IMG/VR virus record: IMGVR_UViG_3300048881_000780
From: a virus
Lineage: Duplodnaviria > Caudoviricetes
DNA: 64,000 nt
Reading direction: 5' to 3' (one strand)
Below the pieces are notes generated by a model. The model did no database searches, was not told the DNA's origin, and saw only the letters and a program-made list of their open reading frames with translations. This document shows positions 1 to 64,000 of the stretch, one piece after another. Position 1 is the first letter of the stretch; the number at the start of each line of letters is the position of its first letter. A program made the translations under genes and the position numbers.

Positions 1-330
1 TCGTATGGGTGGAAATCTGTGGTTACGAAGGAGCTTTTATGTAATTACGTATTCGTAAATGCTTTGGTCTGTATTTCGTGTTTTGTGATTCGGGTTTATT
101 TCTGTCTCGTGATTCGTGATTCGTAATTACGTTGTTTTCGTGATTCGTAATTGTTCGTCTGGGCCTTTGTTATTGATGATAGGGGAGGGGGGTTACGAAT
201 ATTGACTTCGTAATTGCGCGAAAGCGATAAACAAAAAAATAATCTTGCTTAATTAAAAAATCAAATCTCTTATTTTGTAAGTTGTTAATCACTAAATATT
301 AAAAGTGTGATTACGAATTACGTTAAAAAG
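1..330. repeat. Degenerate heptad array (TCGTGAT/TCGTAAT and inverse ATTACGA) in non-coding DNA
   Basis: Tandem tcgtgat-tcgtgat-tcgtaat at 107-127 plus roughly ten further direct/inverted copies between 1 and 325. Confidence 0.7.
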
Positions 331-422
331 TCATTTTGACCTATGTTATGGCATTGCTTGTAGTTGATAGCGCCACAGACCGTAAATTGGATCTAAATTT
401 ATAAATTATCACTTCTTTTAAA

Positions 423-430
423 TACGATAA
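423..430 (+). promoter_or_regulatory. TACGATAA promoter-like motif (first of 15 oriented intergenic copies)
   Basis: 21 nt upstream of ATG 452, followed by AGGAG RBS; same word and geometry recur across the window. Confidence 0.75.
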
Positions 431-451
431 GTATATTAATAGGAGATATGT

Positions 452-754
452 ATGAAATTAGATAATTTTACTGAAAATGAAATTGTAGATAATGTAGTTA
501 AGATATGCTCAATGTACATTGATCAATTAGACTATGACTGTGACCAGGATGGATACTTTCCCAGTTGTAAAAGTATTCACGAGATTATTGAAAAATATGT
601 AGAGAAGAATTTCTCTAATATTAGCGACAATGATTATAAAGTTATCGAGACTGTTTCAGAGTATCAACTTGAACAAAATTTTTCTTGGCCTATGCCTAAA
701 GATGAGGCCCTAGTTGAGCTAATTAGAGACTCGAGAAAGAGGCTAGCAAAATAA
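452..754 (+). CDS. Hypothetical acidic protein, 100 aa
   Basis: ORF with AGGAG RBS and TACGATAA motif. Confidence 0.75.
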   Translation: MKLDNFTENEIVDNVVKICSMYIDQLDYDCDQDGYFPSCKSIHEIIEKYVEKNFSNISDNDYKVIETVSEYQLEQNFSWPMPKDEALVELIRDSRKRLAK

Positions 755-909
755 CTATTTAATTTTAATAGAATAGATAGTATAATATAACTACCTGTTA
801 TTACTTAGTTTTTCTTCATATGAAAACCTTAGGGGTATCAATTCTAGGTGATTATATAGGTGCTTTAGTCTCTATGCGTTGGGCCCTTCATATTTCTTAT
901 AATAGATAT

Positions 910-1927: not shown

Positions 1928-2770
1928 ATGTTGTTTCTTAAAGTCTGTTTTTTTATTATTTCTGTTAATTTAATTCTTACTGGAGCCGTTAGCGCTCTTT
2001 TTCTAATTACGCCACTTGCAGGACTAATCAAGAATAGTTACGAAATTGTAGTGCCAATACTTTTTTCATTTTTCGCTACTTCTAATATGTTTCACTTAAA
2101 TAGGGAATCTAGAGATTATAAGAAAAATTACATTGAAGGGAGCTCCAATCAATTTAACGAGAATACTAAGAATAAGAGACTTAGAGATGTTGCAAAAATT
2201 GTAAAGAGAACTGCAAATATGTATAGAATTAAAATGCCTATATTATCGTACACAAAATGCGAAGAAGTGAACGCCTGGGCGTCAAGTCAATTATTTAAAA
2301 GAGATCTACTACACTTCTCATCTGGGGCCTTAGCTGATTTACCTTTGGATAAAATCGAAGGACTTATAGCTCATGAACTATCTCATTTACGTCATGGAGA
2401 TTCATTTAAAACACTCGTTCTCGAGGGCTTTTTTTCAAATTTAAGCTTCATGATTACAATTGCCACTTTTCCAGTGTCGATTATTATGTTTGTAGTAAAC
2501 CTTCTGAGGAATCCATTCTCTAAGAATAAATACCTTGATTTAAAGGTTATTTCATTTGATCACTTATTTGTTCAATATGTATGTTCTGTACAAAGAAAGA
2601 TGGAGTTTAGAGCAGATAAGGACGCAGTCAAGAAGGTTGGTTACGATAGGGTAGTTAGCATCTTAGAATTTTTAAAGGAAAATAATAAGTCTAATTATAC
2701 TTTAACTGAACAGGATCTAAAGATATCTACTCATCCCGACCCAAATCTTAGAATTCTAAATATTTCTTAG
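1928..2770 (+). CDS. M48 (HtpX-like) membrane zinc metalloprotease
   Basis: NAWA, AHELSH (HExxH), EFRAD and STHP motifs with TM helices. Confidence 0.9.
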   Translation: MLFLKVCFFIISVNLILTGAVSALFLITPLAGLIKNSYEIVVPILFSFFATSNMFHLNRESRDYKKNYIEGSSNQFNENTKNKRLRDVAKIVKRTANMYRIKMPILSYTKCEEVNAWASSQLFKRDLLHFSSGALADLPLDKIEGLIAHELSHLRHGDSFKTLVLEGFFSNLSFMITIATFPVSIIMFVVNLLRNPFSKNKYLDLKVISFDHLFVQYVCSVQRKMEFRADKDAVKKVGYDRVVSILEFLKENNKSNYTLTEQDLKISTHPDPNLRILNIS

Positions 2771-4164: not shown

Positions 4165-4215
4165 TTAACCAATACTTTCAGTACGTTAAAAGACACATTG
4201 ATTTTATCTTTACAT

Positions 4216-4236
4216 ATGTATATAATATATATACAT
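4216..4236. promoter_or_regulatory. Inverted-repeat operator overlapping TATAAT of the nucleotidyltransferase pair
   Basis: ATGTATATA-ATA-TATATACAT containing TATAAT at 4221-4226. Confidence 0.5.
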
Positions 4237-4245
4237 GGGTTAAAA

Positions 4246-4773
4246 ATGAAAGATGTAATAATTAAATTCGACAACTTTTTAACTGAGAAGAATTTTAGCT
4301 TTGACGTTATAGTAATAGGTGGTGCAGCTCTTAATATTATGGGTGTCACAAATCGTGTAACTAGGGATGTTGATTGTATCGACCCTGAATTATCAGTTAA
4401 AATAAAAGAACTCTCTTATATATTTGCAACAGAAAATTACAACTTAGGACTTGATCCAAATAATTGGTTTAATAATGGCCCTATCTCGATATTAAATGAT
4501 TTAGATAAAGGATGGGAGTCTAGAGTAGTTTTAATATTTGAAGGGAGTTCTTTGAATATATCTACTCTAGGTAGAATTGATTTACTGAAAACCAAGTTAT
4601 TTGCATATTGTGATAGAGATATTGATTATGATGATTGCGTAAAATTAAATCCAACTATTCAGGAATTAAATGAATGTCAAAAATGGGTAAAAGATCGAGA
4701 CGCAAATGATCTATGGCCCAGTCACGTTGATAACTGTTTTAAGCTTATAGCCAAGGGGTTAGGGTATGAGTAA
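4246..4773 (+). CDS. Pol-beta-superfamily nucleotidyltransferase (DUF6036-like), putative TA/Abi component
   Basis: VIGGAAL...RVTRDVDC (GG...DxD); LKTKLFA..DRDIDYDD; start likely ATG 4246. Confidence 0.8.
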   Translation: MKDVIIKFDNFLTEKNFSFDVIVIGGAALNIMGVTNRVTRDVDCIDPELSVKIKELSYIFATENYNLGLDPNNWFNNGPISILNDLDKGWESRVVLIFEGSSLNISTLGRIDLLKTKLFAYCDRDIDYDDCVKLNPTIQELNECQKWVKDRDANDLWPSHVDNCFKLIAKGLGYE

Positions 4774-9271: not shown

Positions 9272-10438
9272 TTAAGTACTTAATATTACGCTACTTTCTT
9301 TTTGATTAGCTTCAGTCTTTTTTACGAAATATAAAATAATTATCATAATGAAAAGTCCAAAAATAGACAAGCCAAGTAAAACATTCATTAATTCAAAATA
9401 ACTATTCAAAACTCCAATGATACAGGTACAAATCCCCACCGTTACTCCTGTGACAAGATGAAAGAAAGATTGACCTGTCGCGGAGTACTTTGAATCTATC
9501 TTCTTCGTGAAATCCTCGAAGTAAAAGTACACGAAGGATCTTGGAATTATTGCAATAAACAAAAGTAGATAGGCGTAATCAGAAGCGAAATAGCAGGCGA
9601 TTCCAATTACACAATGAGAGAGTGCGCTTAGATACCTGGGATATGGTAACACTTTTAGAAAAAAGGACACTTTCTTAATGCATAAAGAAAGTAATATATT
9701 GTATACACCAAAAATAATTGCAAATTTAGATAGAGGAATATCAGAGTTCTCTAACAGAGGTTGTAAAAAGGTAAATAATGTTAAAAAAGATCCTGAAGAA
9801 ATACTTCCTTCCAATAGCAATCCTAGAATATACCTATCTTTAAATAAGTGCTTTATAGTTCTTGTAATACCGAGACGTTCCTTCTTTTCTAAATATGTTG
9901 TGCATTTATTATTTATAGAAAATCCCAAGATTAGTACACTCAATGAGATAAGTAACTGCGTAAAAATAATAAAATCAAAACCGAAAAAAGTAAGGGCCGA
10001 TGCTAGAAATGCCGAAGCGAATACCCCAACTCTTTTGTAAAAAAATAAACCCGAAATCAATCCTTCGTCACTTTGTATTTTATTTATTATCGCAACATCG
10101 CTTCCTGATAAAAATGCAAAGCTTAAAGCTGAAAGGATTTGATATATTATAAATGACCAAAATGATATTGATATAAATAGACAAAATGAAGCAGCTGCGA
10201 ATAACACTCCAGAGAATATTATCGCGTTCCTGGAACCCCAGTGATCAGAAAAATACCCACTAGGCACTTCAGCTATTAATGAAGTGAATCTAAATACAGC
10301 TGTAAAATAAAAAAGATCAGCCGTTGTAAGTCCATTATGAAGAAGTAAAGGTAATAGTATTGCTTCTATTAAAACGAAGCCCCTGAAGAATGATATCGCG
10401 TATATTTTCTTTACTTCTCTATGTATTTTGCCTTTCAT
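9272..10438 (-). CDS. MFS transporter
   Basis: ~12 TM segments; EVPSGYFSDHWGSR (MFS motif A) and LSGSDVA. Confidence 0.88.
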   Translation of the reverse strand: MKGKIHREVKKIYAISFFRGFVLIEAILLPLLLHNGLTTADLFYFTAVFRFTSLIAEVPSGYFSDHWGSRNAIIFSGVLFAAASFCLFISISFWSFIIYQILSALSFAFLSGSDVAIINKIQSDEGLISGLFFYKRVGVFASAFLASALTFFGFDFIIFTQLLISLSVLILGFSINNKCTTYLEKKERLGITRTIKHLFKDRYILGLLLEGSISSGSFLTLFTFLQPLLENSDIPLSKFAIIFGVYNILLSLCIKKVSFFLKVLPYPRYLSALSHCVIGIACYFASDYAYLLLFIAIIPRSFVYFYFEDFTKKIDSKYSATGQSFFHLVTGVTVGICTCIIGVLNSYFELMNVLLGLSIFGLFIMIIILYFVKKTEANQKESSVILST

Positions 10439-13408: not shown

Positions 13409-13421
13409 GTAGGTGAGAGAT

Positions 13422-53739: not shown

Positions 53740-54147
53740 TTACTTATTATCGTTAAATTCGTTAATTGCTAATGCCGTGGCCTCTAAGCATGAAAAATGA
53801 AGACTATCTCTTTTTGATGTGAAATATTCATTATTAGGAAGTTCATTTTTCCACTCTTTTGTATAATATAGTTGGCATTCATTAGTTTCAGGTTGGAATC
53901 TATTTAGTTTTACATCATGTTTTATATTTAGAAATTCCCAGACAGGCAGGAACGAATCAATCGACTTTCCATAAGGAAGCTCTTCAAAATCAAGGAAACC
54001 ATCTCTATTAAAATTCATTGATTCCTCTAGTACTTTTAAGTCTTTAGAAGGATGCTTACTTCTATCAACCCAGCGAACTCTCCCTAGAATCTCAATAGGT
54101 TCATAATTCATATACATGGCAATGACTTTAATATATTCTTTTTTCAC
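53740..54147 (-). CDS. Phage-type hypothetical protein upstream of dnaE
   Basis: AGGAG RBS; 1-nt gap to dnaE. Confidence 0.7.
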   Translation of the reverse strand: MKKEYIKVIAMYMNYEPIEILGRVRWVDRSKHPSKDLKVLEESMNFNRDGFLDFEELPYGKSIDSFLPVWEFLNIKHDVKLNRFQPETNECQLYYTKEWKNELPNNEYFTSKRDSLHFSCLEATALAINEFNDNK

Positions 54148-54168: not shown

Positions 54169-54300
54169 TAACACTGCTTGTTAACTATATAAAGTTGCAA
54201 AGTATGACTAATATTCAAAAAACACACAAAAACAAATAAGTACTTAATATTACGAAGCACACCTCACGCCATCGGCTTTATTTGTTAACACAACTTGTTA
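54169..54300. promoter_or_regulatory. Divergent replication-gene promoter region with two TAACAC-N3-TTGTTA sites
   Basis: 54169-54183 (toward dnaE) and 54286-54300 (toward helicase), each overlapping a TGnTAnnnT element. Confidence 0.65.
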
Positions 54301-54355: not shown

Positions 54356-56443
54356 ATGTCCCAAATTAGATCAAAAGCCCTAGCTCCTGAGTTTCAAAAG
54401 GAAATTATTTCCCTTATTGTCAGCTCAAATAACTTCTCAAATGGTTTTTTTAGTTTAATTAAGGGTGTATCTAATAACGAAATGATTAAGAATCTGAGAA
54501 TTTTCTCAGACCCTACAATTCATGAAATTTATAAACAATTCAGTGAATGCAAGAAAGAGAAAGATTATCACCCTAGTAGAGGTGAATTTATTCAATTTAT
54601 TCACGACAATTTTCATAACGAAAATAGAGATACCTTAGTTCAAAGAATTAACTCTCTATATGAAATGAAGGTTGAGTCAACAAAAGAACACGAGCAAACA
54701 GTACTTAATCTCGTTATTATGGCCAAGGTACTAAACCATTTAAATCATATTCCAGATTTAACTGAATCAAAGAATGCTCAAGAAGATATCCTGAAAATTA
54801 GTGATGATATCGTATCTTTTGCTGAAGATATTAAGAATACAAGTTTTACAAAAGCTAATGTGATTGATGTAACAGACCCATTTTCTCTAATAAAAGAGTA
54901 TGCTGTTACAGCAGGACAAAAAATTCAGCTTGGGCACCCAGATCTTGATGATGCACTTAACGGAGGAATTGGCCGTCAAGAAGTAACAGTTCTTATCTCT
55001 CGAGTTAATGGTGGTAAATCAATACTACTGGTAAATATATGTGCAAATGCACTAAGACAATATCCTGATGAAAATATTGCCTTTGTTGTTATGGAGGGGA
55101 AGAAACTCCAGACACCAATTAGATTAATGAGTAATCTAACAGATATTCCCTATGAGATTCTATCAAATGCTAAAAAAACCATAGATGAAAGCTCTTCAAA
55201 ATCTGACCTAGCAAGGTATTTCAAACAATACTACGGATTCTTTAAGAGTCGCTTCTCACTAGAGAAATTCTTCGAGGCCCATGACCCAAAAGATTTTAAT
55301 AACGACGAATCTTTTTCCAATTGGTGTATGGATAAACTTGATAAGTACGAAAAAGAGTTTGGTCACAGGATATCAATGATTGACTGTACTCAGGACTCAA
55401 GTCTTGAATCTATTCTTCTTAGTATAGAACAAGAATCCAAGAGACTTGGTGGGTTTTCTATCACCTCTATTGATTATGGACAGCTAATTAAAGTAGCAAA
55501 TTTAAAGTTTGCGACTACAGATTTAGAGCTTAAACACATATTTAGAGAATTAGAGAAATTATCTTCTAGAATTTACACATCTTGTATTGTACCAATGCAA
55601 GCAAAAACTGAAGCGATGAGAAAGCTTGAAGATCAAATCGAAAAAGGAACAAGATTTCCATATTACGATATTGCAAGTTGTGCAGACTCTAAAAAGCCAG
55701 CAGATTCTTCTGCAACAGTTCTTGCTTGGACTAGAACAAATGAAGAAAATAAAATGGGAAGAGGTAGAGTAACTGTTGTAAAATCTAGAGAGTCTCGAAC
55801 TGATTTTCAAATCGGATTTATTCCAAGATGGGATATCTGTAAAATTATGACCGATGATATCTATTTCAAAGGTTTTGGTGACGAGAATCAACTACAACAA
55901 TACAAGAATGATCAAGAAGCAACTAGTGATTTCTTTGCATCAAAAAAAGATAACGTAACTCCTTCTACACAAGAGGATGATTCACCTAAAGAAATTATAG
56001 CTAGTGAGTTTATAGAAGCTTCAAACATACTATCAGAACTCTTTTCTCAGTGGGATTATGAGAAAACTACTGAAATTCGTGATCAACTAATTCACCTTTT
56101 ACAAAAAGAAGAAGAGACTATTAAAGAGAGAGTTAAACTCAAATCATTAGATGTTTCTGATGAAAATTTTGATCTATGTGAAGAAAAGATTGAACTGAAT
56201 ATGCAAGAAATTAGTAATATAAGAGAAGAGTTACCTGATATTACTTATAAGCTTGGAAGTAATGATGAAAAAAATGGACCACTAGAGCTGACTCTAAGTT
56301 CAAATGGGCTATTTAAAATCGCATACAAGAAAGCTAAAAAGGCATTAGAGTTCATTTCAGAACAAACCACAGAAAAAGAAATTCTTGAGCTCTTTTGTGA
56401 AATTAACGAAATTGTTTTAAAAATCGAGGCCCTCGATGACTAA
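54356..56443 (+). CDS. SF4 replicative helicase (DnaB / T4 gp41-like) with C-terminal extension
   Basis: SRVNGGKS (Walker A), MEG, IDYGQL, PMQ, KSR. Confidence 0.88.
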   Translation: MSQIRSKALAPEFQKEIISLIVSSNNFSNGFFSLIKGVSNNEMIKNLRIFSDPTIHEIYKQFSECKKEKDYHPSRGEFIQFIHDNFHNENRDTLVQRINSLYEMKVESTKEHEQTVLNLVIMAKVLNHLNHIPDLTESKNAQEDILKISDDIVSFAEDIKNTSFTKANVIDVTDPFSLIKEYAVTAGQKIQLGHPDLDDALNGGIGRQEVTVLISRVNGGKSILLVNICANALRQYPDENIAFVVMEGKKLQTPIRLMSNLTDIPYEILSNAKKTIDESSSKSDLARYFKQYYGFFKSRFSLEKFFEAHDPKDFNNDESFSNWCMDKLDKYEKEFGHRISMIDCTQDSSLESILLSIEQESKRLGGFSITSIDYGQLIKVANLKFATTDLELKHIFRELEKLSSRIYTSCIVPMQAKTEAMRKLEDQIEKGTRFPYYDIASCADSKKPADSSATVLAWTRTNEENKMGRGRVTVVKSRESRTDFQIGFIPRWDICKIMTDDIYFKGFGDENQLQQYKNDQEATSDFFASKKDNVTPSTQEDDSPKEIIASEFIEASNILSELFSQWDYEKTTEIRDQLIHLLQKEEETIKERVKLKSLDVSDENFDLCEEKIELNMQEISNIREELPDITYKLGSNDEKNGPLELTLSSNGLFKIAYKKAKKALEFISEQTTEKEILELFCEINEIVLKIEALDD

Positions 56444-58031
56444 AACATACGTTATGAAAATTAAAGTCAAAGATTATCTCGAGAGAAATGATATCGATCC
56501 CTCTCGAGAGAATGCCAAAGGATTTATTCAGACTGATTGTCCTGCATGTGATGGAAAGAAAAAAGTTCACATACTAGTTAGTCCCGATAAGTATTCCGAT
56601 GAGTTGCCATATGGATTTAGTAAGTGTCAAAAAGGATGCTTTATTGGTGGCTTTGAGAAATTCGTTTCCATAGTAGAAGGAATAGAACCCGAAGAGGCCT
56701 GGAAGAAAATATTCACGGTTAAAAATTCAAAAAGTAAGAAGAAATCTCCATATACCCTATCTACTGATAATGAGCAGAAAGTCAGAAAAAAAAGAGAAAT
56801 ACCACCCGTTCTACCTATTGAGATTCCTCACTTAGCAACAAAATTAACAAACGATTCTCCAAGTTTTCAACACAAATTAGCAAGGGCCTTTTTAGTTGGA
56901 AAAAGAGGTGTTAATAGTAGCGATCTCGATAAACTTGAAATCTATGTCATTCCATATGACGCGAAAAGTACTCAAAAAATGATAGCTAATAAGCACAATA
57001 TTGAACTAGCGTCATTACTAGATTTTTATAAAAAAACGAAGACTGAACTTAATCACCTAAAAATATTTAGCGCTGGAGATATAACTGTTAAAAACTCTAA
57101 GGACGTTGATCAATACTTTAAAGTCGATGGAATCTCACTAGCAATTAGAGACTTATATAATCACTACCTTCATCTAAATAGGGCCATTATGACTATCAAG
57201 TACAAGAGGAAGATAGTTGGATTTGTATCTAGAGCAGTAACCGATAAATTTATTGGACCAAAGGTATTAAACTCCTCTGGGCCATTACAAAGCTATTACT
57301 TTTGGAATTATCACAATTTAGTTAAATCCGGCGTAGAAGAGCTTGTTCTATGTGAAGGTATTTTAGATGCCTACCACTGTGGAATTGATAGATCTATGGC
57401 CATTCTTGGTCTAAGCCTAGGAACAGAGGAGAGAACTCTTCTTATTAGTAAATTACTTAAACCAAAGAAGGTTATAGTTTACTTTGACCCTGGCGCAGAA
57501 GATAAGGCATTGGTTTACGCTGAAAATCTATCTAAAGAAGGACTTAACGTAGAAATTACCTTCTTAGATCACTTATGCCACTGGGATTTAGACAGAGAAA
57601 AACAATTTAAAGATTTTCTAGAGATCACTGGTTCTATATCCAAGAAATCAAAAAAGGATACTAATAACTTAAAAGAGATCCCATATGATGATTATATGAG
57701 ACTAAAATGTATTCTATCTTTTTTTAAAAAAGCAAATGACCACGATTTATCAACGGCCAAATCTAAAATTTTAAAAATTCCACAATATAAAGAAATATTT
57801 CCAGAAATTGAAGAGAGCTCTAAAAAACTATATCTACACTTTAAAAGAAACCTAAGTGATGTAGTTGATTTTATCTCCCCTATTTGTGATCTCTCATATA
57901 TCGATGCTGGAGATTTATCTAAAGAAGAAAATACTAAAATAACCAATAACTCCTCTGCGCTTGGAAACCTAGTTGATCTAAAGATTAAGAAGTTAAAAAA
58001 GAGAAGAATTAAATTTGGAGAAAGAAAATGA
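56436..58031 (+). CDS. DNA primase (Zn ribbon plus TOPRIM)
   Basis: CPAC...CQKGC; CEGILDA; YFDPG; DAGDL; coupled to helicase. Confidence 0.85.
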   Translation: MTKTYVMKIKVKDYLERNDIDPSRENAKGFIQTDCPACDGKKKVHILVSPDKYSDELPYGFSKCQKGCFIGGFEKFVSIVEGIEPEEAWKKIFTVKNSKSKKKSPYTLSTDNEQKVRKKREIPPVLPIEIPHLATKLTNDSPSFQHKLARAFLVGKRGVNSSDLDKLEIYVIPYDAKSTQKMIANKHNIELASLLDFYKKTKTELNHLKIFSAGDITVKNSKDVDQYFKVDGISLAIRDLYNHYLHLNRAIMTIKYKRKIVGFVSRAVTDKFIGPKVLNSSGPLQSYYFWNYHNLVKSGVEELVLCEGILDAYHCGIDRSMAILGLSLGTEERTLLISKLLKPKKVIVYFDPGAEDKALVYAENLSKEGLNVEITFLDHLCHWDLDREKQFKDFLEITGSISKKSKKDTNNLKEIPYDDYMRLKCILSFFKKANDHDLSTAKSKILKIPQYKEIFPEIEESSKKLYLHFKRNLSDVVDFISPICDLSYIDAGDLSKEENTKITNNSSALGNLVDLKIKKLKKRRIKFGERK

Positions 58032-58357: not shown

Positions 58358-58621
58358 ATGACAAAAGATAAAGAAGAGTGCGTCGCTGGGTGCAATGTAT
58401 TTAACGGTGGAGAAATAAGACACCACGAGAATTGCCCATTCTATCCAGAAAGTCTAACGGAGATGTACGAGAGAAAAGATAGAGATAACGAAACTCTAAT
58501 AAAGGGTATCTCCTATTTGGAGAGTATTAGTAATGACCCCATTCACCCTGATCTTCTCGGGGCGTTTTTGCGAGACTTACTCGACCAAGTTGGAATTAAA
58601 AAGAGGTCAAATAAAAAGTGA
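58358..58621 (+). CDS. Small protein with Cys/His motif
   Basis: CVAGC...HHENC..YPES. Confidence 0.65.
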   Translation: MTKDKEECVAGCNVFNGGEIRHHENCPFYPESLTEMYERKDRDNETLIKGISYLESISNDPIHPDLLGAFLRDLLDQVGIKKRSNKK

Positions 58622-59049
58622 AAGAATTTATTTTAAAAAATATCAGTTTCTTAATAGGGCTAATTATAGGAGCAGTCATTGGTGTCACAGGGATTGCAAC
58701 TTGTGTATATATTAAAACCTCACAAATGCATTCTACTATCTACATGAAAAAAAGAATCAGCTCTAAGAAAACTCCTTTAAAACTAAAGAGAGTATTATGT
58801 AACGCCCTTATGGTTGATACAGGACTTATTAATTCACAATGTATTATGAATTTTGGATTAAGCTATTTAAGCACTTACCCTGAAACTATTCTACCTTATA
58901 TCACTAGAAAGAATACTCTCAAGAAATTTATTTCAATACCATATCTAAAGAGTGTTCAATTCCTACATAAAGAAAGGTTGATCACCACTGAAGATATAAA
59001 TAATTCTGAATCACTTTCTTATATATTAAACTCACAGGAGATTATATGA
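58618..59049 (+). CDS. Single-TM membrane protein, family A copy 1
   Basis: Paralogue of 60619..61053. Confidence 0.72.
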   Translation: MKEFILKNISFLIGLIIGAVIGVTGIATCVYIKTSQMHSTIYMKKRISSKKTPLKLKRVLCNALMVDTGLINSQCIMNFGLSYLSTYPETILPYITRKNTLKKFISIPYLKSVQFLHKERLITTEDINNSESLSYILNSQEII

Positions 59050-59625
59050 ATTCATTTATGAACGATCTGGCCACTAAATTAGTATTTGAAAATGCAGGAT
59101 CTTTTGTTGACCCTGAAATAATATTAGGAGTATATACATTTATAGTCGTTGGAAGCTTATTTGGTATATATGTCCTTAGAGTAAAAGTACAAGGAGTCAA
59201 AAATGGAGAGAGCATATCCCCTCAACCTAGGGATCGTTTTATTTTCTTCTCTTTTATTATAGCTTATTCACTAATTGGAATAATTGGAATAATTGATCTT
59301 TTTACTCTTAGATATCCACCTGAAAAGGTACTATGCTTTAATGTTAATTACAGAAATAATCCAAAAACTAGAATTGGTTATTTAAATGACACCCGACGCT
59401 TTGTTAACTTAAGTGATTTACCATCAGGTAATATATCATTCTTTGAACCCAATTCATTCACTCTAAAAGATTATCAAGCTTGTAATAATGAAGAGCTAGA
59501 TTTCATTAAAGAAGTCGATTCAGCAAGAATCAAAGTCTATCAAGACTCAAATTCTATTAAACATTAATTAATAAACTCACAGGAGATTATATGAATTCAT
59601 TTATGAACGATCTGGCCACTAAATT
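59027..59625 (+). repeat. 54-bp perfect direct repeat covering RBS and first codons of two adjacent paralogues
   Basis: TAAACTCACAGGAG...GGCCACTAAATT at 59027-59080 and 59572-59625. Confidence 0.92.
59046..59567 (+). CDS. Two-TM membrane protein, family B copy 1
   Basis: 2 TM + LCF...RIGYL...Y.xC. Confidence 0.75.
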   Translation: MNSFMNDLATKLVFENAGSFVDPEIILGVYTFIVVGSLFGIYVLRVKVQGVKNGESISPQPRDRFIFFSFIIAYSLIGIIGIIDLFTLRYPPEKVLCFNVNYRNNPKTRIGYLNDTRRFVNLSDLPSGNISFFEPNSFTLKDYQACNNEELDFIKEVDSARIKVYQDSNSIKH

Positions 59626-60127
59626 TGTATTTAATAATACCCCAGGTTTAAGAGACTCTCCGGAAGCAGTCTTAGGGGTGTTCATTTTTTTAATAATCAT
59701 GAGTTTAATGGGTCTCTATACGTTAAGACAATTAGAAGTTAAAGGCCACATTGAAAAATCGTCAAATAACAAAGTTCACTATACTTTCTTTATTGTTGGC
59801 CTAATTTTTTCAAGTCTTGGACTGTTAAGAAACTTAACTCTTGAGTCACCACCAAATAAACTACTTTGTTTTGAGGTCGATTATCAAAAACAAGGTGGGT
59901 ACATAGATTTAAAAAAAAATCAACATACAACAACTAAAACCAACTCAAAGACTAGAGTTGGATATTTAAAGAATATTAGAACTTTTATAGACTTAAACGA
60001 TCTATCTGTAATTAATGTAAATACACCATCTCACATTAAATACCAAGAGTGCACTAATCGTGATCGTAAATTGATTAAAGATGTTATTTCTTCAATTACA
60101 AACTTTAAAAATCTAACTAAGGATTAA
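59591..60127 (+). CDS. Two-TM membrane protein, family B copy 2
   Basis: Same N-terminus MNSFMNDLATK; LCF...RVGYL...YQEC. Confidence 0.75.
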   Translation: MNSFMNDLATKFVFNNTPGLRDSPEAVLGVFIFLIIMSLMGLYTLRQLEVKGHIEKSSNNKVHYTFFIVGLIFSSLGLLRNLTLESPPNKLLCFEVDYQKQGGYIDLKKNQHTTTKTNSKTRVGYLKNIRTFIDLNDLSVINVNTPSHIKYQECTNRDRKLIKDVISSITNFKNLTKD

Positions 60128-60129
60128 AA

Positions 60130-60609
60130 ATGGATTTCTTATACAAAGTAAGCCTTGAAACACTTCTAGAACAATTGGGGTATCATCAAAACATCACTAT
60201 TGTTTTCTATTCACTACCCCTATTTATTATTGTCTGGTTAATGTTAAGACAGGCGGAGAATAAAGAAATAAAAATATCTCATATGTTTGTATTTTTTGTT
60301 TCAGCAATGTTTATGATATTTTTTAACACTCAGATTTTTAATCCCGAATTGGAATGTGTTGGCAGTAAAACATTAGAATTTAAAAGGGAATATGGAGAAA
60401 TTAAAGCATTTACATCTAGATATATTGTTCTTTCAAATTCTAAGAGCGGATTAAAACTTATAAACCCTAAAACTAATCAAATAAAATTCAAGAGTAACTC
60501 GGATCAATTTGCTAGCTGTACAGACAAAGAGAGAGAAATACTTGAAAGAATCAAGACTTTTAAAGCTGGAAAAGTTACAGAAATTTCTACAACAAAAGAA
60601 TTTAAGTAA
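60130..60609 (+). CDS. Two-TM membrane protein, family B copy 3 (divergent)
   Basis: 2 TM + LEC...LIN...FASCTDKE. Confidence 0.68.
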   Translation: MDFLYKVSLETLLEQLGYHQNITIVFYSLPLFIIVWLMLRQAENKEIKISHMFVFFVSAMFMIFFNTQIFNPELECVGSKTLEFKREYGEIKAFTSRYIVLSNSKSGLKLINPKTNQIKFKSNSDQFASCTDKEREILERIKTFKAGKVTEISTTKEFK

Positions 60610-60618
60610 AAGGATTTT

Positions 60619-61053
60619 ATGAAAGAAGAAAACAAAAACTTATTCAATGAGTTGCAATTTTTTTTATTAGGTAACGCAATTGTGCTAATTATCATTTTCT
60701 CATTATTTAGTATCGGGAATGCAATCGTTACATATAAAAGGCCATCTACAACCTATATAAATAAAAGAGTTACTGATTCAAAAGTTCCCACAAAAGTAAA
60801 GTGGATACTATGTGAAGCTTTCCTTTTTGATACTAAAGCTCTTAATATTCAATGCATTAAGAGATTCGGGTTAAATCATCTTAAAAATTTTCCCGTCGCC
60901 CATTTCTACATAGGTTTTAATTATCTACATCCATTCTCTAAAGAAGTTAATCTTCTTTATGAGCAAGGATTAATTAGGCAAGAAGATCTTGAAAACTCAA
61001 CGACTCTTAGCTACTTCATCAATAGAAGGGATATTGTATTATGGAAGAATTAA
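60619..61053 (+). CDS. Single-TM membrane protein, family A copy 2
   Basis: LC.A...DT...N.QCI..FGL and LI..ED..NS..LSY shared with 58618..59049. Confidence 0.72.
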   Translation: MKEENKNLFNELQFFLLGNAIVLIIIFSLFSIGNAIVTYKRPSTTYINKRVTDSKVPTKVKWILCEAFLFDTKALNIQCIKRFGLNHLKNFPVAHFYIGFNYLHPFSKEVNLLYEQGLIRQEDLENSTTLSYFINRRDIVLWKN

Positions 61054-61541
61054 TGAAACTACTCTTTGTTGAGAATGTATTTAGAGATTTATTATTTAAT
61101 AATTTTATATCTATTGCTGGGAAAATAGAGCTTGTAGTAATAAGCATATTAGGCCTTCAGTTTATTTTCATCCTATCGTTTTTATTTAACGATATCCAAA
61201 TGTTACGATTAAAAACAGTAAGTACTACTAAGAAAATATTTATTCTTTCTTCCTTTATTGCTCTATCTCTAATGCTCTATGCCCCATTGTGGGTACTAAG
61301 TAGCGCTCCAAAGGGATATCTTTGTTTTCAAAGTGTTGAAGATAATTCTAGAGGTGAAATAATTCGCTATGGTAATATCCCTTCAGAGAGACATATAATC
61401 AATCTTAATAATTTAAACGAAGTAAAACTATTTAACTTCCCTAAAAATATGATCAAGTACTCAAAGTGTACAAGTGATGAGGAGCTAACACTCTCAAGAA
61501 TTGAGATGATGAATAATAATGCCAAAATTTTAAATAATTGA
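61041..61541 (+). CDS. Two-TM membrane protein, family B copy 4
   Basis: 2 TM + P..YLCF...RYG...INLNNL...YSKC. Confidence 0.72.
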   Translation: MEELMKLLFVENVFRDLLFNNFISIAGKIELVVISILGLQFIFILSFLFNDIQMLRLKTVSTTKKIFILSSFIALSLMLYAPLWVLSSAPKGYLCFQSVEDNSRGEIIRYGNIPSERHIINLNNLNEVKLFNFPKNMIKYSKCTSDEELTLSRIEMMNNNAKILNN

Positions 61542-61555
61542 TCACTAACGAAGTG

Positions 61556-64000
61556 TTACCTTTTAAGTAGCACTTCGACTGCTCCATCTTGACCAGGGTT
61601 ACCTACAGAGTTTAAAATAACACCCACGCCACTTCCTCCAGCTGAAGATCCTCCAAGACCTTGACCATTTAACCGAATATTCCCATCTGCACCAAATCCA
61701 CCACCTGGCCCAGCTCCCTTTGAGCCTCTAACTAGAACACTACCTAATACAGGATCTAAATAGGCCATAGAGCCTCCGCCTCCTCCTGAGGAAATTGCTA
61801 CTATATTATCATCAACTACAATAGCACTTGCACCACCACCTGATGGAGCTCTATATTCGTAATTGTCATAATTCAATTCATCTGATAACTCAGTCTTATT
61901 TCTAATTGTTGGTTTCGTTGGATTTTCATATCCCCAAAACCTATCTAGAAAGTCATAACAAAAGCCTAAACATTTAAGAGAAGGAGATCCTCCGACTCCT
62001 ACATAAAACTTTACATGTTTTCCTACAATACCATTAACCTCTACACTAAGAGTCTCACCACTTCCCCCATCTGATTGATGAAGAGCATCGGAATAACCAC
62101 CACCTCCGGCACCTGAAATTAACGCGGTAGCGCCAGCAGTAAAGTGAGACGGGATATCAATTGAGTAAACTGAATCCCGTGGAGAAAAGATTAATCTAGC
62201 GTTATTACCTTCAGATGTACAAGTAACTCCCGAAGGAAGAGAGATACCAGCGCAAGAGTCTGCTATAGAGATCATTTGTCCACTCTTATTTAGCCAATAA
62301 CTCTCTGTAGTAAGCCTATTAAAGTAATACCTAGGGGCCGCAATAAACTTATTTCCACCTCCCAAGTTCTCTAATAAGCAATCTAGATCATCCAAACAAG
62401 ACGTCTCAAAAACAAACAATGAATTATTATACTCTTCAACAATATAACTTCCGCTATTATTGTAAAATAACTTATTTTCTGTTTTCTCTCCATCAAACTT
62501 GATGTCTCTCCAAAAAGACTGATCTTGAGAGTGTACAATATATCCGTAATTTCCTTCACCAGCTAAGTAACTATTCATTTCAGGAAAATCTAAAAGATTA
62601 ATAGAATAACTAAATTCATAATTTGAGCTATCTATATTTGACCACTCAAATAAGAATGTATCTAATTGTCTTTTAATTTTAACTTTAACCTCTTTACCAC
62701 TCCATCCATCTCCACCTAGAGCATTTTCACTACATGGTAATTCAAATTTTTGAAACAATGGTATCTTGGTATTACCATCAAAATAGTAAATAAAAGTATT
62801 TGGAACATCACAAGATTGTGTTCTTTCAAATGATAAATACCTATTTAGACCACCAGATCGTTTAAAAGTTGCAATAACTCCCACAAAGTCATCATCGGAT
62901 CCATTACTACTTAAAGTTACTTCGTGAATATAATTTTGCTCTATAGTTGATGAAATAAAACCAATTGGATTAGTAGAATGTACCGAAGAACTAATATCCG
63001 ATCCAACATAACTCCAACTAGTAGCATCTCCTACAACAGTATCCTTTGTGTAAAGAGGAGAATTAAGTTCAAACCTATACCAGGTATTAAATATATCTGC
63101 GACACTAGGTGGACTATATGTAGACTTAGCGTTATTAAAAAGTAGTAAATTATTAAAAACTAGAGCGTTTTTTTGATCCAGTGAACCTATATTAAAACTT
63201 GCTATAGAATCAACAAAATTTCCGATAGAATCACTTACTCTATACTTTATATAAGCCGGGTCTCCCGCGTAACTAAGTGATTTAAACTGCAATCCATCAG
63301 GTCTCGCTGTTACCTCTCCACCTACTACTTCTAAAATTTCAGAAAAACTTAAAGGTGATGGATTAGTAAGAAGAGAAGAGTCGTTTTCAAGCATTTTTGC
63401 AAAAGATAGAAAGTATTCATGACCCTGTTTTAAATCTATAATATCTTCATTGGCCTCAATCGCTGGCGTAATATTAATTGGTATAGTGTGATATAAAGAT
63501 GCTCCTTTATCATCCTCTGCTCTAACTAACAATTCACCTCTTCTTGTATTGCCAGGTGTTGCTCCATATCTAACTCTAGATGCTCCAAGATCGATTAAAT
63601 TTCCTTCTTTTTGAGAAATTGGAGTTATCTGAGGTGGTAGAACACCATCTGGGTCAGAGACAAAATCTAGAAGATTTACATCTATTGAATTTGACGCCAT
63701 AACTTCAATTGAGCTATCCACAAAGAATGGTAAATGATTGTTAACTGTAATATCTATAGTTGCCAATTCAATGGATTCTGCTCCCAGTGGGTCAATGGCC
63801 TTCAAAGTAAATGAATCAGTCCCATTAAACTTTCCAGTTGGAGTGTATACGTATGAATTATTATTAGAAATTTGCACATTTCCAAACTGTGGCTCATCTA
63901 CGATCTCAATGGCCACCTGAGATATCAAATCATCACTATCAAGCTTCTTAATATCTTTTTCAACGGCTACTGTCCCGATTGTTGAAACCGAATCAGATAG
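61556..64000 (-). CDS. C-terminal part of a large adhesin: cadherin/Ig-like repeats, lectin-like domain, glycine-rich tip (5' end beyond window)
   Basis: Frame open to the window edge; YTP..F.GTDSF, DDDFVG, GAGGGG/GGGASA motifs. Confidence 0.82.
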   Translation of the reverse strand, partial: LSDSVSTIGTVAVEKDIKKLDSDDLISQVAIEIVDEPQFGNVQISNNNSYVYTPTGKFNGTDSFTLKAIDPLGAESIELATIDITVNNHLPFFVDSSIEVMASNSIDVNLLDFVSDPDGVLPPQITPISQKEGNLIDLGASRVRYGATPGNTRRGELLVRAEDDKGASLYHTIPINITPAIEANEDIIDLKQGHEYFLSFAKMLENDSSLLTNPSPLSFSEILEVVGGEVTARPDGLQFKSLSYAGDPAYIKYRVSDSIGNFVDSIASFNIGSLDQKNALVFNNLLLFNNAKSTYSPPSVADIFNTWYRFELNSPLYTKDTVVGDATSWSYVGSDISSSVHSTNPIGFISSTIEQNYIHEVTLSSNGSDDDFVGVIATFKRSGGLNRYLSFERTQSCDVPNTFIYYFDGNTKIPLFQKFELPCSENALGGDGWSGKEVKVKIKRQLDTFLFEWSNIDSSNYEFSYSINLLDFPEMNSYLAGEGNYGYIVHSQDQSFWRDIKFDGEKTENKLFYNNSGSYIVEEYNNSLFVFETSCLDDLDCLLENLGGGNKFIAAPRYYFNRLTTESYWLNKSGQMISIADSCAGISLPSGVTCTSEGNNARLIFSPRDSVYSIDIPSHFTAGATALISGAGGGGYSDALHQSDGGSGETLSVEVNGIVGKHVKFYVGVGGSPSLKCLGFCYDFLDRFWGYENPTKPTIRNKTELSDELNYDNYEYRAPSGGGASAIVVDDNIVAISSGGGGGSMAYLDPVLGSVLVRGSKGAGPGGGFGADGNIRLNGQGLGGSSAGGSGVGVILNSVGNPGQDGAVEVLLKR

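What the first reader, a model, noticed from the sequence alone, without database searches (positions are those of the whole stretch)
1..64000. Large self-replicating element with a chimeric bacterial/phage replisome and an adhesin cargo
Seen: DnaE, an SF4 helicase whose Walker A (SRVNGGKS) resembles T4 gp41, a Zn-ribbon/TOPRIM primase, a CTD-less type IIA topoisomerase, dUTPase and a Dam-class MTase, mixed with at least seven large lipoproteins/adhesins, an MFS transporter and TA-like pairs. There are no ribosomal, metabolic or virion genes in 64 kb. Established: chromosomal dnaE/dnaB/dnaG are shorter and lie among housekeeping genes. Inference: an undescribed megaplasmid, chromid or plasmid-like jumbo phage. 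Disulfide-stapled cadherin repeats and ASH/invasin/Kelch lipoproteins point to a predatory Bdellovibrionota (Bacteriovoracaceae-like) host, so the element could change prey or surface recognition.
Basis: partly seen in the sequence, partly recalled or inferred. Interest (0 to 1): 0.85.

Follow-up and report, generated by a model that had tools for sequence, protein, structure and literature searches.

The report
Giant plasmid-like element with own replisome
This 64-kb stretch is part of a 361-kb plasmid-like DNA element from an uncultured, probably Gram-negative bacterium; it carries its own DNA-copying enzymes and belongs to a rare family of giant conjugation-type elements that I did not find in the plasmid, phage and viral-contig collections or in the papers I searched.

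Summary
The window encodes an 1823-aa DnaE, a 695-aa DnaB-family helicase (Walker A SRVNGGKS), a DnaG-type primase, a T4-style split topoisomerase II with no CTD, dUTPase, a Dam methylase, an FtsK/TraB-like ATPase fused to an Mrr nuclease, an integrase and seven lipobox proteins. It has no tRNA, rRNA, ribosomal or virion genes.

The contig is 361,129 bp. The long DnaE forms its own clade, separate from cellular DnaE. Relatives share the DnaE / helicase-primase block on contigs of 92-213 kb. One relative is a closed 197,862-bp circle binned in an Oligoflexia MAG, which has canonical dnaE, dnaB, dnaN, dnaX and gyrA on other contigs. That circle has ParA, a VirB4-family ATPase and a VirB10-like operon. 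It has no detectable terminase, capsid, portal, sheath, tRNA, clamp or clamp loader.

Best reading: a giant conjugative-type megaplasmid lineage that encodes much of its own replication fork. A huge phage or a chromosome is unlikely.

The gp41 likeness is not supported. The Bdellovibrionota host is only weakly supported. One of the "cargo" adhesins is a core gene of the family.

Other first-stage notes reached the same reading on overlapping windows of this same contig, not on other DNA.

The parts
107..152 (.). Array of about 6 heptads, TCGTGAT (candidate centromere or iteron-like site)
   Evidence: Tandem Repeats Finder, period 7, 6.1 copies. The function is inferred only.
1928..2770 (+). 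M48-family peptidase (accessory gene)
   Evidence: Pfam Peptidase_M48, E 1e-12
4198..4773 (+). DUF6036 nucleotidyltransferase; two homologues in the circular relative C104
   Evidence: Pfam E 6e-14; blastp to C104
5445..9200 (-). Two paralogous lipoproteins (5445-6503 and 7785-9200) with small ORFs between them
   Evidence: Lipoboxes LIGC and LVGC; 72% nucleotide identity between 6122-6514 and 8864-9254; weak CBM_4_9 and Ig-like hits
9272..10438 (-). MFS transporter, almost an orphan
   Evidence: Pfam MFS_1; only 5 weak homologues among 5.8 billion proteins
13413..14050 (+). Small ORF + HTH_37 (HigA-like) pair, candidate toxin-antitoxin pair 1
   Evidence: Pfam HTH_37, E 3e-9; the toxin partner matches no family
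17407..18040 (+). Paralogous small ORF + HTH_37 pair, candidate toxin-antitoxin pair 2
   Evidence: Pfam HTH_37, E 1e-8; N-termini resemble pair 1
19122..22268 (-). His-Me finger endonuclease, two HTH_3 regulators and a tyrosine integrase (small mobile or resolution module)
   Evidence: Pfam His_Me_b4a2, HTH_3 and Phage_integrase
22798..28137 (+). 1779-aa lipoprotein with at least 9 Big_9/cadherin-like repeats
   Evidence: Pfam Big_9, E 6e-126; lipobox LTGC
28155..31805 (-). 1216-aa membrane-anchored FtsK/TraB-like ATPase fused to an Mrr_cat nuclease. Candidate DNA translocase or coupling protein. Conserved in C104.
   Evidence: Pfam FtsK_SpoIIIE and Mrr_cat; phrog_1358; Walker A GTTGSGKS and a TM segment near residues 67-100; the C104 homologue hits plasmid TraB at E 3e-6; blastp E 7e-48
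32141..32155 (.). Palindromic operator-like site (1 mismatch), upstream of the 91-aa gene and the FtsK-Mrr gene
   Evidence: the DNA search: 4 sites against 0.12 expected
32192..33535 (-). Type IIA topoisomerase A subunit, 447 aa, no C-terminal domain (T4 gp52-like architecture)
   Evidence: Pfam DNA_topoisoIV, E 1e-84, covers residues 24-430; phrog_551, E 2e-105
33573..35507 (-). Type IIA topoisomerase B subunit (ATPase + TOPRIM), 644 aa
   Evidence: Pfam; phrog_543, E 1e-134; about 30% identity to both T4-like gp39 and bacterial GyrB/ParE
35531..35545 (.). Exact palindromic operator TAACAC-N3-GTGTTA, 24 bp upstream of the topoisomerase operon
   Evidence: exact copies also lie upstream of the ClpA-like and RecA genes downstream of the window
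35857..37470 (+). 537-aa lipoprotein matching no family
   Evidence: Lipobox VVSC; no Pfam, PHROG or NCBIfam hit
38428..39533 (-). D12-class (Dam) N6-adenine methyltransferase, followed by a mycobacteriophage L5 gp82-like protein
   Evidence: Pfam MethyltransfD12, E 3e-20; Phage_L5_gp82, E 8e-30
39614..41713 (+). SNF2-family helicase, 699 aa
   Evidence: Pfam SNF2-rel_dom; phrog_62; only generic DpdE/ZorD-like hits in PADLOC
41786..43024 (-). 412-aa lipoprotein with a choice-of-anchor C domain
   Evidence: NCBIfam TIGR04362, E 2e-6; lipobox LGAC
43367..46837 (-). 1156-aa ASH / choice-of-anchor D lipoprotein. A core gene of the element family. Preceded by a 90-aa thioredoxin-like gene at 43083-43355.
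   Evidence: Pfam Cep192_D4 and ASH; NCBIfam; 25% identity over 1169 aa to the C104 1125-aa protein, E 2e-91
47653..48216 (-). dUTPase
   Evidence: Pfam E 1e-26; 42% identity to the C104 copy
48267..53738 (-). Long-form DnaE, 1823 aa (C-family replicative polymerase)
   Evidence: Pfam; phrog_405, E 1e-186; a clade of about 1800-aa proteins with 99-100 support, apart from cellular DnaE
53740..54147 (-). 135-aa gene directly upstream of dnaE on the same strand (its stop is one base before the dnaE start); matches no family
54169..54300 (.). Divergent promoter region with two operator-like palindromes (54169-54183 and 54286-54300)
54356..56443 (+). Long DnaB-family SF4 helicase, 695 aa
   Evidence: Pfam DnaB_C; profile hits DnaB structures 4a1f and 4zc0; 60 clusters at E<1e-30 among 1.84 billion representatives
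56436..58031 (+). DnaG-type primase (Zn ribbon + TOPRIM), 531 aa; its start overlaps the end of the helicase gene by 8 bases
58618..61541 (+). Six consecutive small (143-178 aa) proteins, each with an N-terminal hydrophobic (TM-like) segment; two begin with the same sequence
   Evidence: no family match
61556..64000 (-). C-terminal 814 aa of a 1516-aa cadherin/Big_9 lipoprotein that runs off the window
   Evidence: Pfam; full gene and lipobox LGAC seen in Logan contig L022

Best explanation
The window is a section of a giant (at least 361 kb) extrachromosomal, plasmid-like replicon. It belongs to a rare, deep-branching family of elements of about 90-360 kb.

The family is defined by a conserved divergent block. 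On one side is a gene for an about 1800-aa DnaE. On the other side are a 650-700-aa DnaB-type helicase and a DnaG-type primase. Other shared genes are dUTPase, a RecA + helicase pair, a membrane FtsK/TraB-like ATPase fused to an Mrr nuclease, a large ASH-type surface lipoprotein and a VirB8/9/10-like envelope operon.

Proposed working (inferred). A plasmid-type initiator and partition system maintains the circle; ParA is shown in the relative, while rep/iterons are only noted by another first-stage reader upstream of this window. Fork progression uses the element's own helicase, primase and polymerase. This element also has a T4-style topoisomerase II that would unlink the large daughter circles. 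dUTPase and Dam methylation condition its DNA. The replication and repair genes are co-regulated through a shared palindromic operator, TAACAC-N3-GTGTTA. The sliding clamp, clamp loader and ligase are presumably borrowed from the host. Spread is by a divergent type IV secretion (conjugation-like) apparatus, not by virions.

My odds: plasmid-like extrachromosomal element rather than phage or chromosome, about 0.75. Conjugative T4SS, about 0.6. Host a Gram-negative bacterium of the Oligoflexia/Bdellovibrionota type, about 0.4.
For: - Size: the window's proteins lie on a 361,129-bp contig.
- No cellular core genes: no tRNA or Rfam hit in the window. No tRNA in about 36 kb downstream or in the whole relative.
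- DnaE: the long forms make one clade (SH-like support 99-100), apart from 58 cellular DnaEs, including the canonical DnaE of the relative's own MAG.
- Synteny: DnaE <-> helicase-primase recurs on contigs of 213 kb, 198 kb, 92 kb and up to 192 kb from several samples.
- Closed relative: G001:C104 has an exact 119-bp terminal overlap, and its DnaE reads through the junction to 1774 aa. That makes a closed circle of 197,862 bp.
- Host genes elsewhere in the same MAG: canonical dnaE on C86, dnaB on C44, and dnaN, dnaX and gyrA on C97.
- Genes shared between C104 and this element: DnaE, helicase, primase, dUTPase, FtsK-Mrr, the ASH lipoprotein, RecA + helicase and the VirB9/10-like genes.
- Plasmid and T4SS content of C104: ParA-like protein (phrog_164, E 1e-44) and a VirB4-family ATPase (TIGR00929 E 3e-21; TraC E 3e-18).
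- T4SS-like operon in this element, 28-36 kb past the window: gene topologies in the order VirB8-, VirB9-, VirB10- then VirB7-like. The 782-aa protein matches TrbI across the whole profile (E 1.4e-4), and its C104 homologue also matches (E 4e-3).
- No virion genes: Terminase_6N, TerL_ATPase, Terminase_6C, Phage_capsid, Phage_portal and sheath are all absent from C104. The listed top 25 of 53 and of 61 matched PHROG families for C104 are almost all DNA metabolism or mobility, with no virion function.
- No close relative in IMG/VR, in PLSDB or among isolated phages.
- Operator: 4 sites in the window against 0.12 expected, at the topoisomerase and DnaE/helicase promoters. Exact copies lie upstream of the ClpA-like and RecA genes.
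Against: - I could not read the rest of this contig. Its circularity, its VirB4, its relaxase and its rep/par module rest on the distant relative (25-40% protein identity) or on untested first-stage notes.
- The VirB10 match is below Pfam's cut-off. No MOBP/Q relaxase lies on C104.
- About half of the ORFs match no family, so novel virion genes cannot be excluded outright.
- The PHROG census of C104 covered only ORFs of 180 aa or more and showed only the 25 best families per half.
- The replication gene set resembles that of huge phages. The best topoisomerase hit is a 636-kb uncultured phage.
- Host linkage rests on metagenomic binning. C104's tetranucleotide usage correlates with the MAG's other contigs at only 0.63-0.72, against 0.91-0.94 among five of the six sampled chromosome pieces.
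Confidence: 0.65

Rival explanations
1. It is a huge (jumbo) phage or a phage-plasmid. Its structural genes are too divergent to recognise, or lie in the roughly 260 kb of the contig that I could not read.
For: The DNA-metabolism set is typical of huge phages: DnaE, DnaB-like helicase, primase, a T4-style split topoisomerase II (phrog_543 and phrog_551), dUTPase, Dam, an L5 gp82-like protein, His-Me/HNH endonucleases, and RNR and thymidylate synthase in the relative. The best topoisomerase hit is a 636-kb uncultured phage. The FtsK-like ATPase weakly hits a terminase PHROG (E 7e-8).
Against: The closed 198-kb relative has no terminase, capsid, portal or sheath by six Pfam models, and none appears in the PHROG lists shown. 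It has ParA, VirB4 and VirB10-like genes instead. No tRNA was found. No family member is in IMG/VR's 2.9 million viral contigs. The terminase hit is a generic P-loop match inside an FtsK domain.
Confidence: 0.12
2. It is an integrated element (a giant ICE or genomic island), or a chromid or secondary chromosome of an uncultured low-GC bacterium, not a free plasmid.
For: A tyrosine integrase lies at 21084-22268, and there are integrases and transposases on C104. The ends of this contig were not seen. Jumbo elements with both integrated and free forms are described in archaea (PMC13444090 abstract).
Against: The relative closes on itself at 198 kb, with a gene running across the junction. No housekeeping, tRNA or rRNA genes were found in about 100 kb of this element or in C104. 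The Logan assembly of a second data set (SRR35531919) gives the same gene order without chromosomal flanks over about 190 kb.
Confidence: 0.12
3. It is the main or only chromosome of a tiny-genome symbiont, and these are its sole replication genes.
For: The size (361 kb) and GC content (32.6%) are within the range of extremely reduced symbiont genomes (my own knowledge).
Against: No tRNA, rRNA or ribosomal protein gene in 64 kb + 36 kb, whereas reduced genomes are dense in these. The content is large adhesins, methylases, integrase, TA-like pairs and T4SS-like genes. The DnaE is not nested among cellular DnaE. The relative co-occurs with a full canonical set.
Confidence: 0.03

Closest known systems
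'Hodor' conjugative megaplasmids of gut Bacillota (bioRxiv 2026, PMC12934698)
   Same: Elements of more than 300 kb recovered from metagenomes. They have a divergent T4SS (VirB4 conserved, other parts hard to recognise), no canonical relaxase, and were long overlooked.
   Different: Hodors have 45-47% GC, Bacillota hosts and a Rep_3 replicon, and the passages I read describe no DnaE/DnaB/DnaG/topoisomerase II set on them. This family has 33-41% GC, lipobox-rich Gram-negative-style proteins, a VirB9/10-like outer-membrane part and its own fork enzymes.
'Inocle' giant extrachromosomal elements of oral Streptococcus (Nat Commun 2025, PMC12340149)
   Same: Circular elements that are about 32% GC in three of the four groups. 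They carry DNA polymerase III alpha, gyrase, a RecD-like helicase, a sigma factor and cell-surface genes.
   Different: The Inocle marker InoC (Replic_Relax, PF13814) is absent from the window's ORFs and from C104. Inocle DnaE is homologous to the host Streptococcus gene, whereas this DnaE clade stands apart from the cellular DnaEs sampled. The window's DnaE cluster has one member and was found in only one Logan run.
Huge/jumbo phages that encode DnaE-type polymerase and topoisomerase II (for example uncultured phage LR756504, 636 kb; T4-like gp39/gp60/gp52)
   Same: A split type IIA topoisomerase with a short A subunit lacking the CTD. Also DnaE, a DnaB-like helicase, primase, dUTPase, methylases and homing-type endonucleases.
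   Different: No terminase, capsid, portal, tail or tRNA genes. ParA, VirB4 and VirB10-like genes are present. Identity to phage proteins is only 27-31%.
Known plasmids carrying a dnaE copy (Clostridium botulinum, Acinetobacter and Leptospira plasmids in PLSDB)
   Same: A plasmid-borne C-family polymerase gene.
   Different: Those DnaEs are 28-34% identical over less than 55% of the query and of ordinary length. The window's helicase has no tblastn match in any of 72,556 PLSDB plasmids.
Streptomyces TraB and FtsK-type conjugative DNA translocases
   Same: A membrane-anchored FtsK-fold ATPase with Walker A GTTGSGKS. The C104 homologue hits NCBIfam plasmid_TraB at E 3e-6.
   Different: Scores are far below the family cut-offs. 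Here the ATPase is fused to an Mrr-type nuclease domain and co-occurs with VirB4/VirB10-like genes, which TraB systems lack (the last point is my own knowledge).

Membership tests
Conjugative (T4SS-bearing) megaplasmid | Autonomous circular replicon separate from the chromosome | tested here: inconclusive
   Met for relative C104 (119-bp terminal overlap, with a gene spanning the junction). The ends of this 361-kb contig could not be read.
Conjugative (T4SS-bearing) megaplasmid | Partition and initiator module (ParA/B, Rep, iterons) | tested here: inconclusive
   A ParA-like protein is on C104 (phrog_164, E 1e-44). A heptad array lies at window 107-152. The rep/iterons/parA upstream of the window are known only from first-stage note e1-5758065, which I did not test.
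Conjugative (T4SS-bearing) megaplasmid | VirB4-family ATPase | tested here: inconclusive
   Present on C104 (998 aa; TIGR00929 E 3e-21, TraC E 3e-18, CD1110-type E 2e-12). For this element it is only claimed by note e1-5762668, in a region I could not reach.
Conjugative (T4SS-bearing) megaplasmid | Envelope-spanning core (VirB7/8/9/10-like) | tested here: inconclusive
   The operon 28-36 kb past the window has matching topologies. A 782-aa protein matches TrbI over the full profile, but at 22 bits against a cut-off of 35. Its C104 homologue also matches. No PDB sequence hits.
Conjugative (T4SS-bearing) megaplasmid | Relaxase and coupling protein | tested here: inconclusive
   No PF03432 relaxase on C104; other MOB classes were not tested. 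The FtsK/TraB-like ATPase at 28155-31805 is a candidate coupling protein or translocase. C104's VirB4-family protein also gives a weak TraG-D_C hit.
Tailed huge/jumbo phage | Large terminase, portal, major capsid protein and tail genes | tested here: not met
   None in the window. None on the closed relative by PF03237, PF03354, PF17289, PF05065, PF04860 and PF04984, nor in the PHROG lists shown. No family member in IMG/VR.
Chromosome or chromid | rRNA, tRNA, ribosomal-protein or other core housekeeping genes | tested here: not met
   No tRNA or Rfam hit in the window. No tRNA in C104 or in 36 kb downstream. No such Pfam families.
Inocle | InoC marker with a Replic_Relax (PF13814) domain; Streptococcus host | tested here: not met
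   No PF13814 in the window's ORFs or on C104.
C-family replicative polymerase (DnaE) | PHP domain, palm with catalytic aspartates, fingers and HhH | tested here: met
   All four Pfam domains score above their cut-offs. PDIDFD and HxH are present in the window's protein, and their key residues are invariant in the clade.
C-family replicative polymerase (DnaE) | OB fold and a beta-clamp-binding motif of the QL[SD]LF type | tested here: not met
   No PF01336 hit, unlike most cellular DnaEs. A motif scan found none in the window's DnaE. The AF2 model of residues 1246-1823 is too poor to judge (pLDDT 51).
DnaB-family SF4 helicase | RecA-like C-terminal domain with Walker A and B | tested here: met
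   DnaB_C 38 bits against a cut-off of 27. Profile hits DnaB structures. Motifs SRVNGGKS and IDYGQL.
DnaG-type primase | Zn ribbon + RNA-polymerase/TOPRIM domain | tested here: met
   Profile to PDB 4e2k at E 3e-11 and 5guj at E 1.5e-9. Conserved CxxC...CxxxC and EGxxDA.
T4-type (CTD-less, split) type IIA topoisomerase | GyrB-like ATPase + TOPRIM subunit, plus a short GyrA-like subunit without the beta-pinwheel CTD | tested here: met
   Subunits of 644 aa and 447 aa. Pfam and PHROG. Full-length alignment to the gp39+60 proteins of T4-like phages at about 30% identity.

The most novel reading that the evidence does not exclude
This is a previously undescribed class of giant conjugative elements, in Oligoflexia-like Gram-negative bacteria, that replicate with their own fork machinery. 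That machinery is built around an about 1800-aa DnaE with no recognisable clamp-binding motif or OB fold, and no clamp or clamp loader is encoded on the element. If so, the elements are an evolutionary bridge between conjugative plasmids and huge phages. They might also hold a bacterial C-family polymerase that is processive without the beta clamp.
Probability: 0.3. Interest if true: 0.8.

Novelty: new variant of a known kind. Interest (0 to 1): 0.62.

Why it matters
Plasmids normally borrow the host replisome. Large sets of self-encoded fork enzymes are regarded as a hallmark of big phages. Here is a family of 200-360-kb circles with plasmid-type partition, VirB4/VirB10-type transfer genes and no virion genes. 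It also carries its own long DnaE, DnaB-like helicase and DnaG-like primase, and in this member a topoisomerase II. That blurs the line between plasmids and huge phages.

It gives a concrete system in which to ask how very large extrachromosomal DNAs free themselves from host replication control. The family is missing from PLSDB, IMG/VR and the isolate-phage records, so it also illustrates what current mobile-element catalogues miss. The long DnaE, with about 400 extra residues before the palm and about 580 after the HhH domain, is a clear biochemical target.

Tried and rejected
- Full contig: two exact-pattern scans of metagenome contigs found nothing, although a downstream protein is labelled as JGI-sourced.
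- Left flank and a further step downstream: three exact-protein look-ups failed. The rep/par module and the region beyond about 100 kb stay unverified.
- Host signal from accessory genes: the MFS transporter has almost no homologues. The ClpA-like ATPase is only 34-41% identical to anything. Neither helps.
- Host linkage through shared IS copies: the C104 transposase (phrog_506) is single-copy in its MAG, and C104 has no internal repeats.
- Phylum scan: the long DnaE was found in 1 of 401 genomes, the known MAG.
- gp41 likeness: the helicase profile finds only DnaB-type structures, so I dropped it.
- AF2 model of the DnaE C-terminal 578 residues: mean pLDDT 51. It was too poor for a fold search, so none was run. 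It suggests a long helical region and a terminal beta-rich domain, nothing more.
- ESM Atlas look-up of the ASH lipoprotein: no usable hit.
- PDB profile searches with the VirB9- and VirB10-like pairs: no hit.
- PF03135 did not detect the C104 VirB4, and PF12846 gave nothing on C104. NCBIfam did detect it.
- PADLOC: no known defence system in ten candidates. The TA-like pairs remain unconfirmed.
- Megablast of 20 kb against PLSDB: no match.
- Literature searches for Bdellovibrionota or Oligoflexia megaplasmids: nothing relevant. Silvanigrellaceae plasmids of up to 140 kb are reported, but no related plasmid showed up in PLSDB.

Full report
**What is in the window.** The 64 kb (32.6% GC) is densely coding under code 11.
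- An 1823-aa DnaE at 48267-53738(-), with PHP, pol3_alpha, finger and HHH_6 domains.
- Transcribed divergently from it, a 695-aa DnaB-family helicase at 54356-56443 and an overlapping 531-aa gene at 56436-58031.
- A split type IIA topoisomerase: a 644-aa B subunit and a 447-aa A subunit without a C-terminal domain. These belong to phage topoisomerase II PHROGs at E 1e-134 and 2e-105.
- dUTPase, a D12/Dam methylase, an L5 gp82-like protein, an SNF2 helicase, an MFS transporter, an M48 peptidase, a DUF6036 nucleotidyltransferase, two HTH_37 genes each preceded by a small ORF, a His-Me endonuclease and a tyrosine integrase.

The 531-aa gene has no Pfam hit. A profile built from it and two relatives matches the DnaG RNA-polymerase/TOPRIM domain (E 3e-11), and a Zn ribbon and the EGxxDA motif are conserved. 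The helicase Walker A is exactly SRVNGGKS. Seven proteins carry lipoboxes. Two of them are cadherin/Big_9 giants of 1779 and 1516 aa. There is no tRNA, no Rfam family, and no ribosomal, metabolic or virion family. The 1216-aa ORF at 28155-31805 is a membrane-anchored FtsK-type ATPase (GTTGSGKS) fused to an Mrr nuclease domain.

**Size and independent assembly.** The window's proteins are recorded on a contig of 361,129 bp. The same DNA, with identical proteins and gene order, was assembled independently by Logan from run SRR35531919, as contigs of 43 kb and 145 kb. By walking along the second contig I read about 36 kb beyond the window. It holds the rest of the 1516-aa adhesin, a ClpA-like ATPase, a helicase + RecA pair, MutS, an RNase T-type exonuclease, a GDSL lipase, and a twelve-gene operon of exported and membrane proteins.

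**A family, not a one-off.** A search of 5.8 billion proteins found six other DnaEs of about 1800 aa, 31-37% identical to the query by best local alignment (three over 98-99% of it, three over 68-69%). Ordinary DnaEs align over less than 35% of the query. In a tree with 58 cellular and 3 viral-contig DnaEs the long forms make one clade (support 99-100). The canonical DnaE of the MAG that holds one of them falls among the cellular sequences. A helicase profile read against 1.84 billion representative proteins finds about 24 clusters at E<1e-80 and 60 at E<1e-30, nearly all 600-700 aa long. Most are metagenomic singletons without names. Wherever context is available, the block "long DnaE <-> helicase-primase" recurs: a 213-kb Logan contig, a 198-kb NCBI contig, and a member seen on 19 contigs of up to 192 kb. 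In the last member a helicase-RecA pair lies nearby.

**The closed relative.** Contig JAAEST010000104.1 of GCA_024229115.1, labelled an 'Oligoflexia bacterium' MAG, begins and ends with the same 119 bases. When the overlap is removed, its DnaE reads through the junction to 1774 aa. It is therefore a closed circle of 197,862 bp.

It shares these genes with this element: DnaE, helicase, primase, dUTPase, the FtsK-Mrr fusion, the 1156-aa ASH lipoprotein (25% identity over 1169 aa), RecA + helicase, two conserved gene pairs, and four genes of the exported-protein operon in the same order.

The same MAG has canonical dnaE (C86), dnaB (C44), and dnaN, dnaX and gyrA (C97) on other contigs.

The circle has no tRNA. 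It has no beta clamp or clamp loader. It has no match to six Pfam models for terminase, capsid, portal and sheath. A PHROG scan of its 119 largest ORFs lists the best-matched families, and these are almost all DNA metabolism or mobility, with no virion function: methylases, thymidylate synthase, RNR, RecJ, exonucleases, RuvC, UvsX/RecA, DnaB, primase, HNH endonucleases, integrases, transposases and a ParA-like protein. Only the best 25 families per half were shown, so weak structural hits cannot be ruled out.

**Transfer machinery.** A 998-aa protein on the circle is a VirB4-family ATPase (TIGR00929 E 3e-21; TraC E 3e-18; CD1110-type E 2e-12). Pfam's VirB4 model had missed it. In this element, the operon 28-36 kb beyond the window encodes, in order:
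- a bitopic 239-aa protein;
- a signal-peptide 315-aa protein;
- a 782-aa protein with an N-terminal TM segment, whose C-terminus matches TrbI/VirB10 across the whole profile (E 1.4e-4, below the cut-off);
- several exported small proteins;
- a 69-aa lipoprotein.

The relative's homologue of the 782-aa protein also matches TrbI. This is the VirB8-B9-B10...B7 pattern, but only the VirB10 link has sequence support. I could not reach the VirB4 cassette that another first-stage note places 72 kb past the window. No MOBP/Q relaxase is on the circle. The FtsK/TraB-like ATPase in the window is my candidate for the DNA translocase or coupling protein; that is an inference.

**Phage-like or bacterial parts?** The helicase profile hits bacterial DnaB structures and SPP1 G40P, and no gp41 entry. 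Its Walker B (IDYGQL) resembles the DnaB Walker B as I recall it. The primase is DnaG-type. The topoisomerase B subunit is about 30% identical to both the gp39 of T4-like phages and bacterial GyrB/ParE, and its best hit is a 636-kb uncultured phage. Its two-subunit, CTD-less architecture is the T4 one. All four enzymes are deep branches, so 'chimeric' is a fair description of architecture only, not of recent origin. The closed relative lacks the topoisomerase, so it is an addition in this member.

**The unusual DnaE.** Compared with ordinary DnaE, it has about 400 extra residues before the second half of the palm and about 580 after the HhH domain. There is no OB-fold hit and no QL[SD]LF-type clamp motif. 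The catalytic PDIDFD and the PHP metal ligands are present in the window's protein, and their key residues are invariant in the clade. No Pfam intein (Hint) match appeared, and the extra length is conserved across the clade. The AF2 model of the C-terminal part was too poor to use.

**Regulation.** TAACAC-N3-GTGTTA occurs four times with at most 1 mismatch, against 0.12 expected. One site is 24 bp upstream of the topoisomerase operon. Two are in the DnaE/helicase divergent region. One is upstream of the FtsK-Mrr operon. Exact copies precede the ClpA-like and RecA genes. None is present in the relative. This confirms the regulon proposed in other first-stage notes.

**Host.** The evidence is thin.
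- One relative is binned in an Oligoflexia MAG.
- GC is similar: 33-34% for the elements against 34-38% for that MAG.
- GC-normalised tetranucleotide correlation with the MAG's contigs is 0.70-0.85 for the window and 0.63-0.72 for the circle, against 0.91-0.94 among five of the six sampled chromosome pieces. I had no low-GC negative control.
- Lipoboxes and a VirB9/10-like outer-membrane part fit a Gram-negative cell.
- 400 other genomes sampled from the same phylum lack the long DnaE.

**Comparison with the literature.** Giant metagenomic extrachromosomal elements are now known: Hodor megaplasmids of gut Bacillota, Inocles of oral streptococci, and Borgs and jumbo ECEs of Methanoperedens. None matches. 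The Inocle marker domain is absent. Hodors differ in GC content, host and replicon. The family is also absent from PLSDB, IMG/VR and the isolate-phage records at the sensitivity used.

**Verdict.** The gp41 likeness, the cargo view of all the adhesins and the predatory-host story are not established. I rate it a new variant of a known kind, namely a giant conjugative-type plasmid that encodes its own fork enzymes. Interest is moderately high.

Noticed in passing
window 32141-32155, 35531-35545, 39568-39582, 54169-54183, 54286-54300; L022:9944-9958; L024:3816-3830: The palindrome TAACAC-N3-GTGTTA sits in the promoter regions of the topoisomerase, DnaE/helicase, FtsK-Mrr, ClpA-like and RecA genes. 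There are 4 sites with at most 1 mismatch against 0.12 expected. A further 2-mismatch match lies between the Dam and SNF2 genes, but at that stringency the count (6 against 2.6 expected) is not significant. The palindrome is absent from the circular relative. It suggests a regulon specific to this element, with an unidentified repressor.
   Followed up: partly
window 58618-61541 (+): Six consecutive genes encode 143-178-aa proteins, each with an N-terminal hydrophobic (TM-like) segment. Two begin with the same MNSFMNDLATK. None matches any family. They lie directly downstream of the primase operon.
   Followed up: no
window 15130-15217 and 15830-15906: A 46-bp repeat (1.9 copies) and an 11-bp repeat, GGGAACCAAGC (6.9 copies, 95% identical), flank the orphan ORF 15274-15807.
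   Followed up: no
window 41716-41772: A 16-bp tandem repeat, AACGTACGTCATATTT (3.6 copies), lies between the convergent SNF2 and lipoprotein genes. It could be a binding-site array.
   Followed up: no
window 43083-43355 (-): A 90-aa thioredoxin-like gene (CxxC) lies immediately downstream of the conserved 1156-aa ASH lipoprotein gene. It may relate to the many cysteines in the surface proteins.
   Followed up: no
L025:1702-10950 (about 28-36 kb beyond the window end): A twelve-gene operon with VirB8/9/10/7-like topologies. The 300-aa gene after the VirB10-like gene, called a sigma factor in another first-stage note, matched no Pfam family at E up to 1 and no NCBIfam family at E up to 0.05.
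   Followed up: partly
L025:12204-14614, and G001:C104:131241-142139: A conserved gene pair (about 520-630 aa followed by about 270-280 aa) is present once here and twice in the circular relative, where it directly follows the ASH lipoprotein gene. This may be a surface-structure module of unknown type.
   Followed up: no
G001:C104:109588-110340, and G001:C53:343093-344316: The circular relative carries a second, more conventional DnaB-like gene (426 aa, 170 bits). A different 426-kb contig of the same MAG has a CTD-less topoisomerase A subunit (476 aa) and a relaxase, so other mobile elements may lie in that bin.
   Followed up: no
window 48267-53738; G001:C104 as a whole: The long DnaE has no recognisable clamp-binding motif or OB fold, and the closed relative encodes no beta clamp or clamp loader. 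How the polymerase achieves processivity is open.
   Followed up: partly
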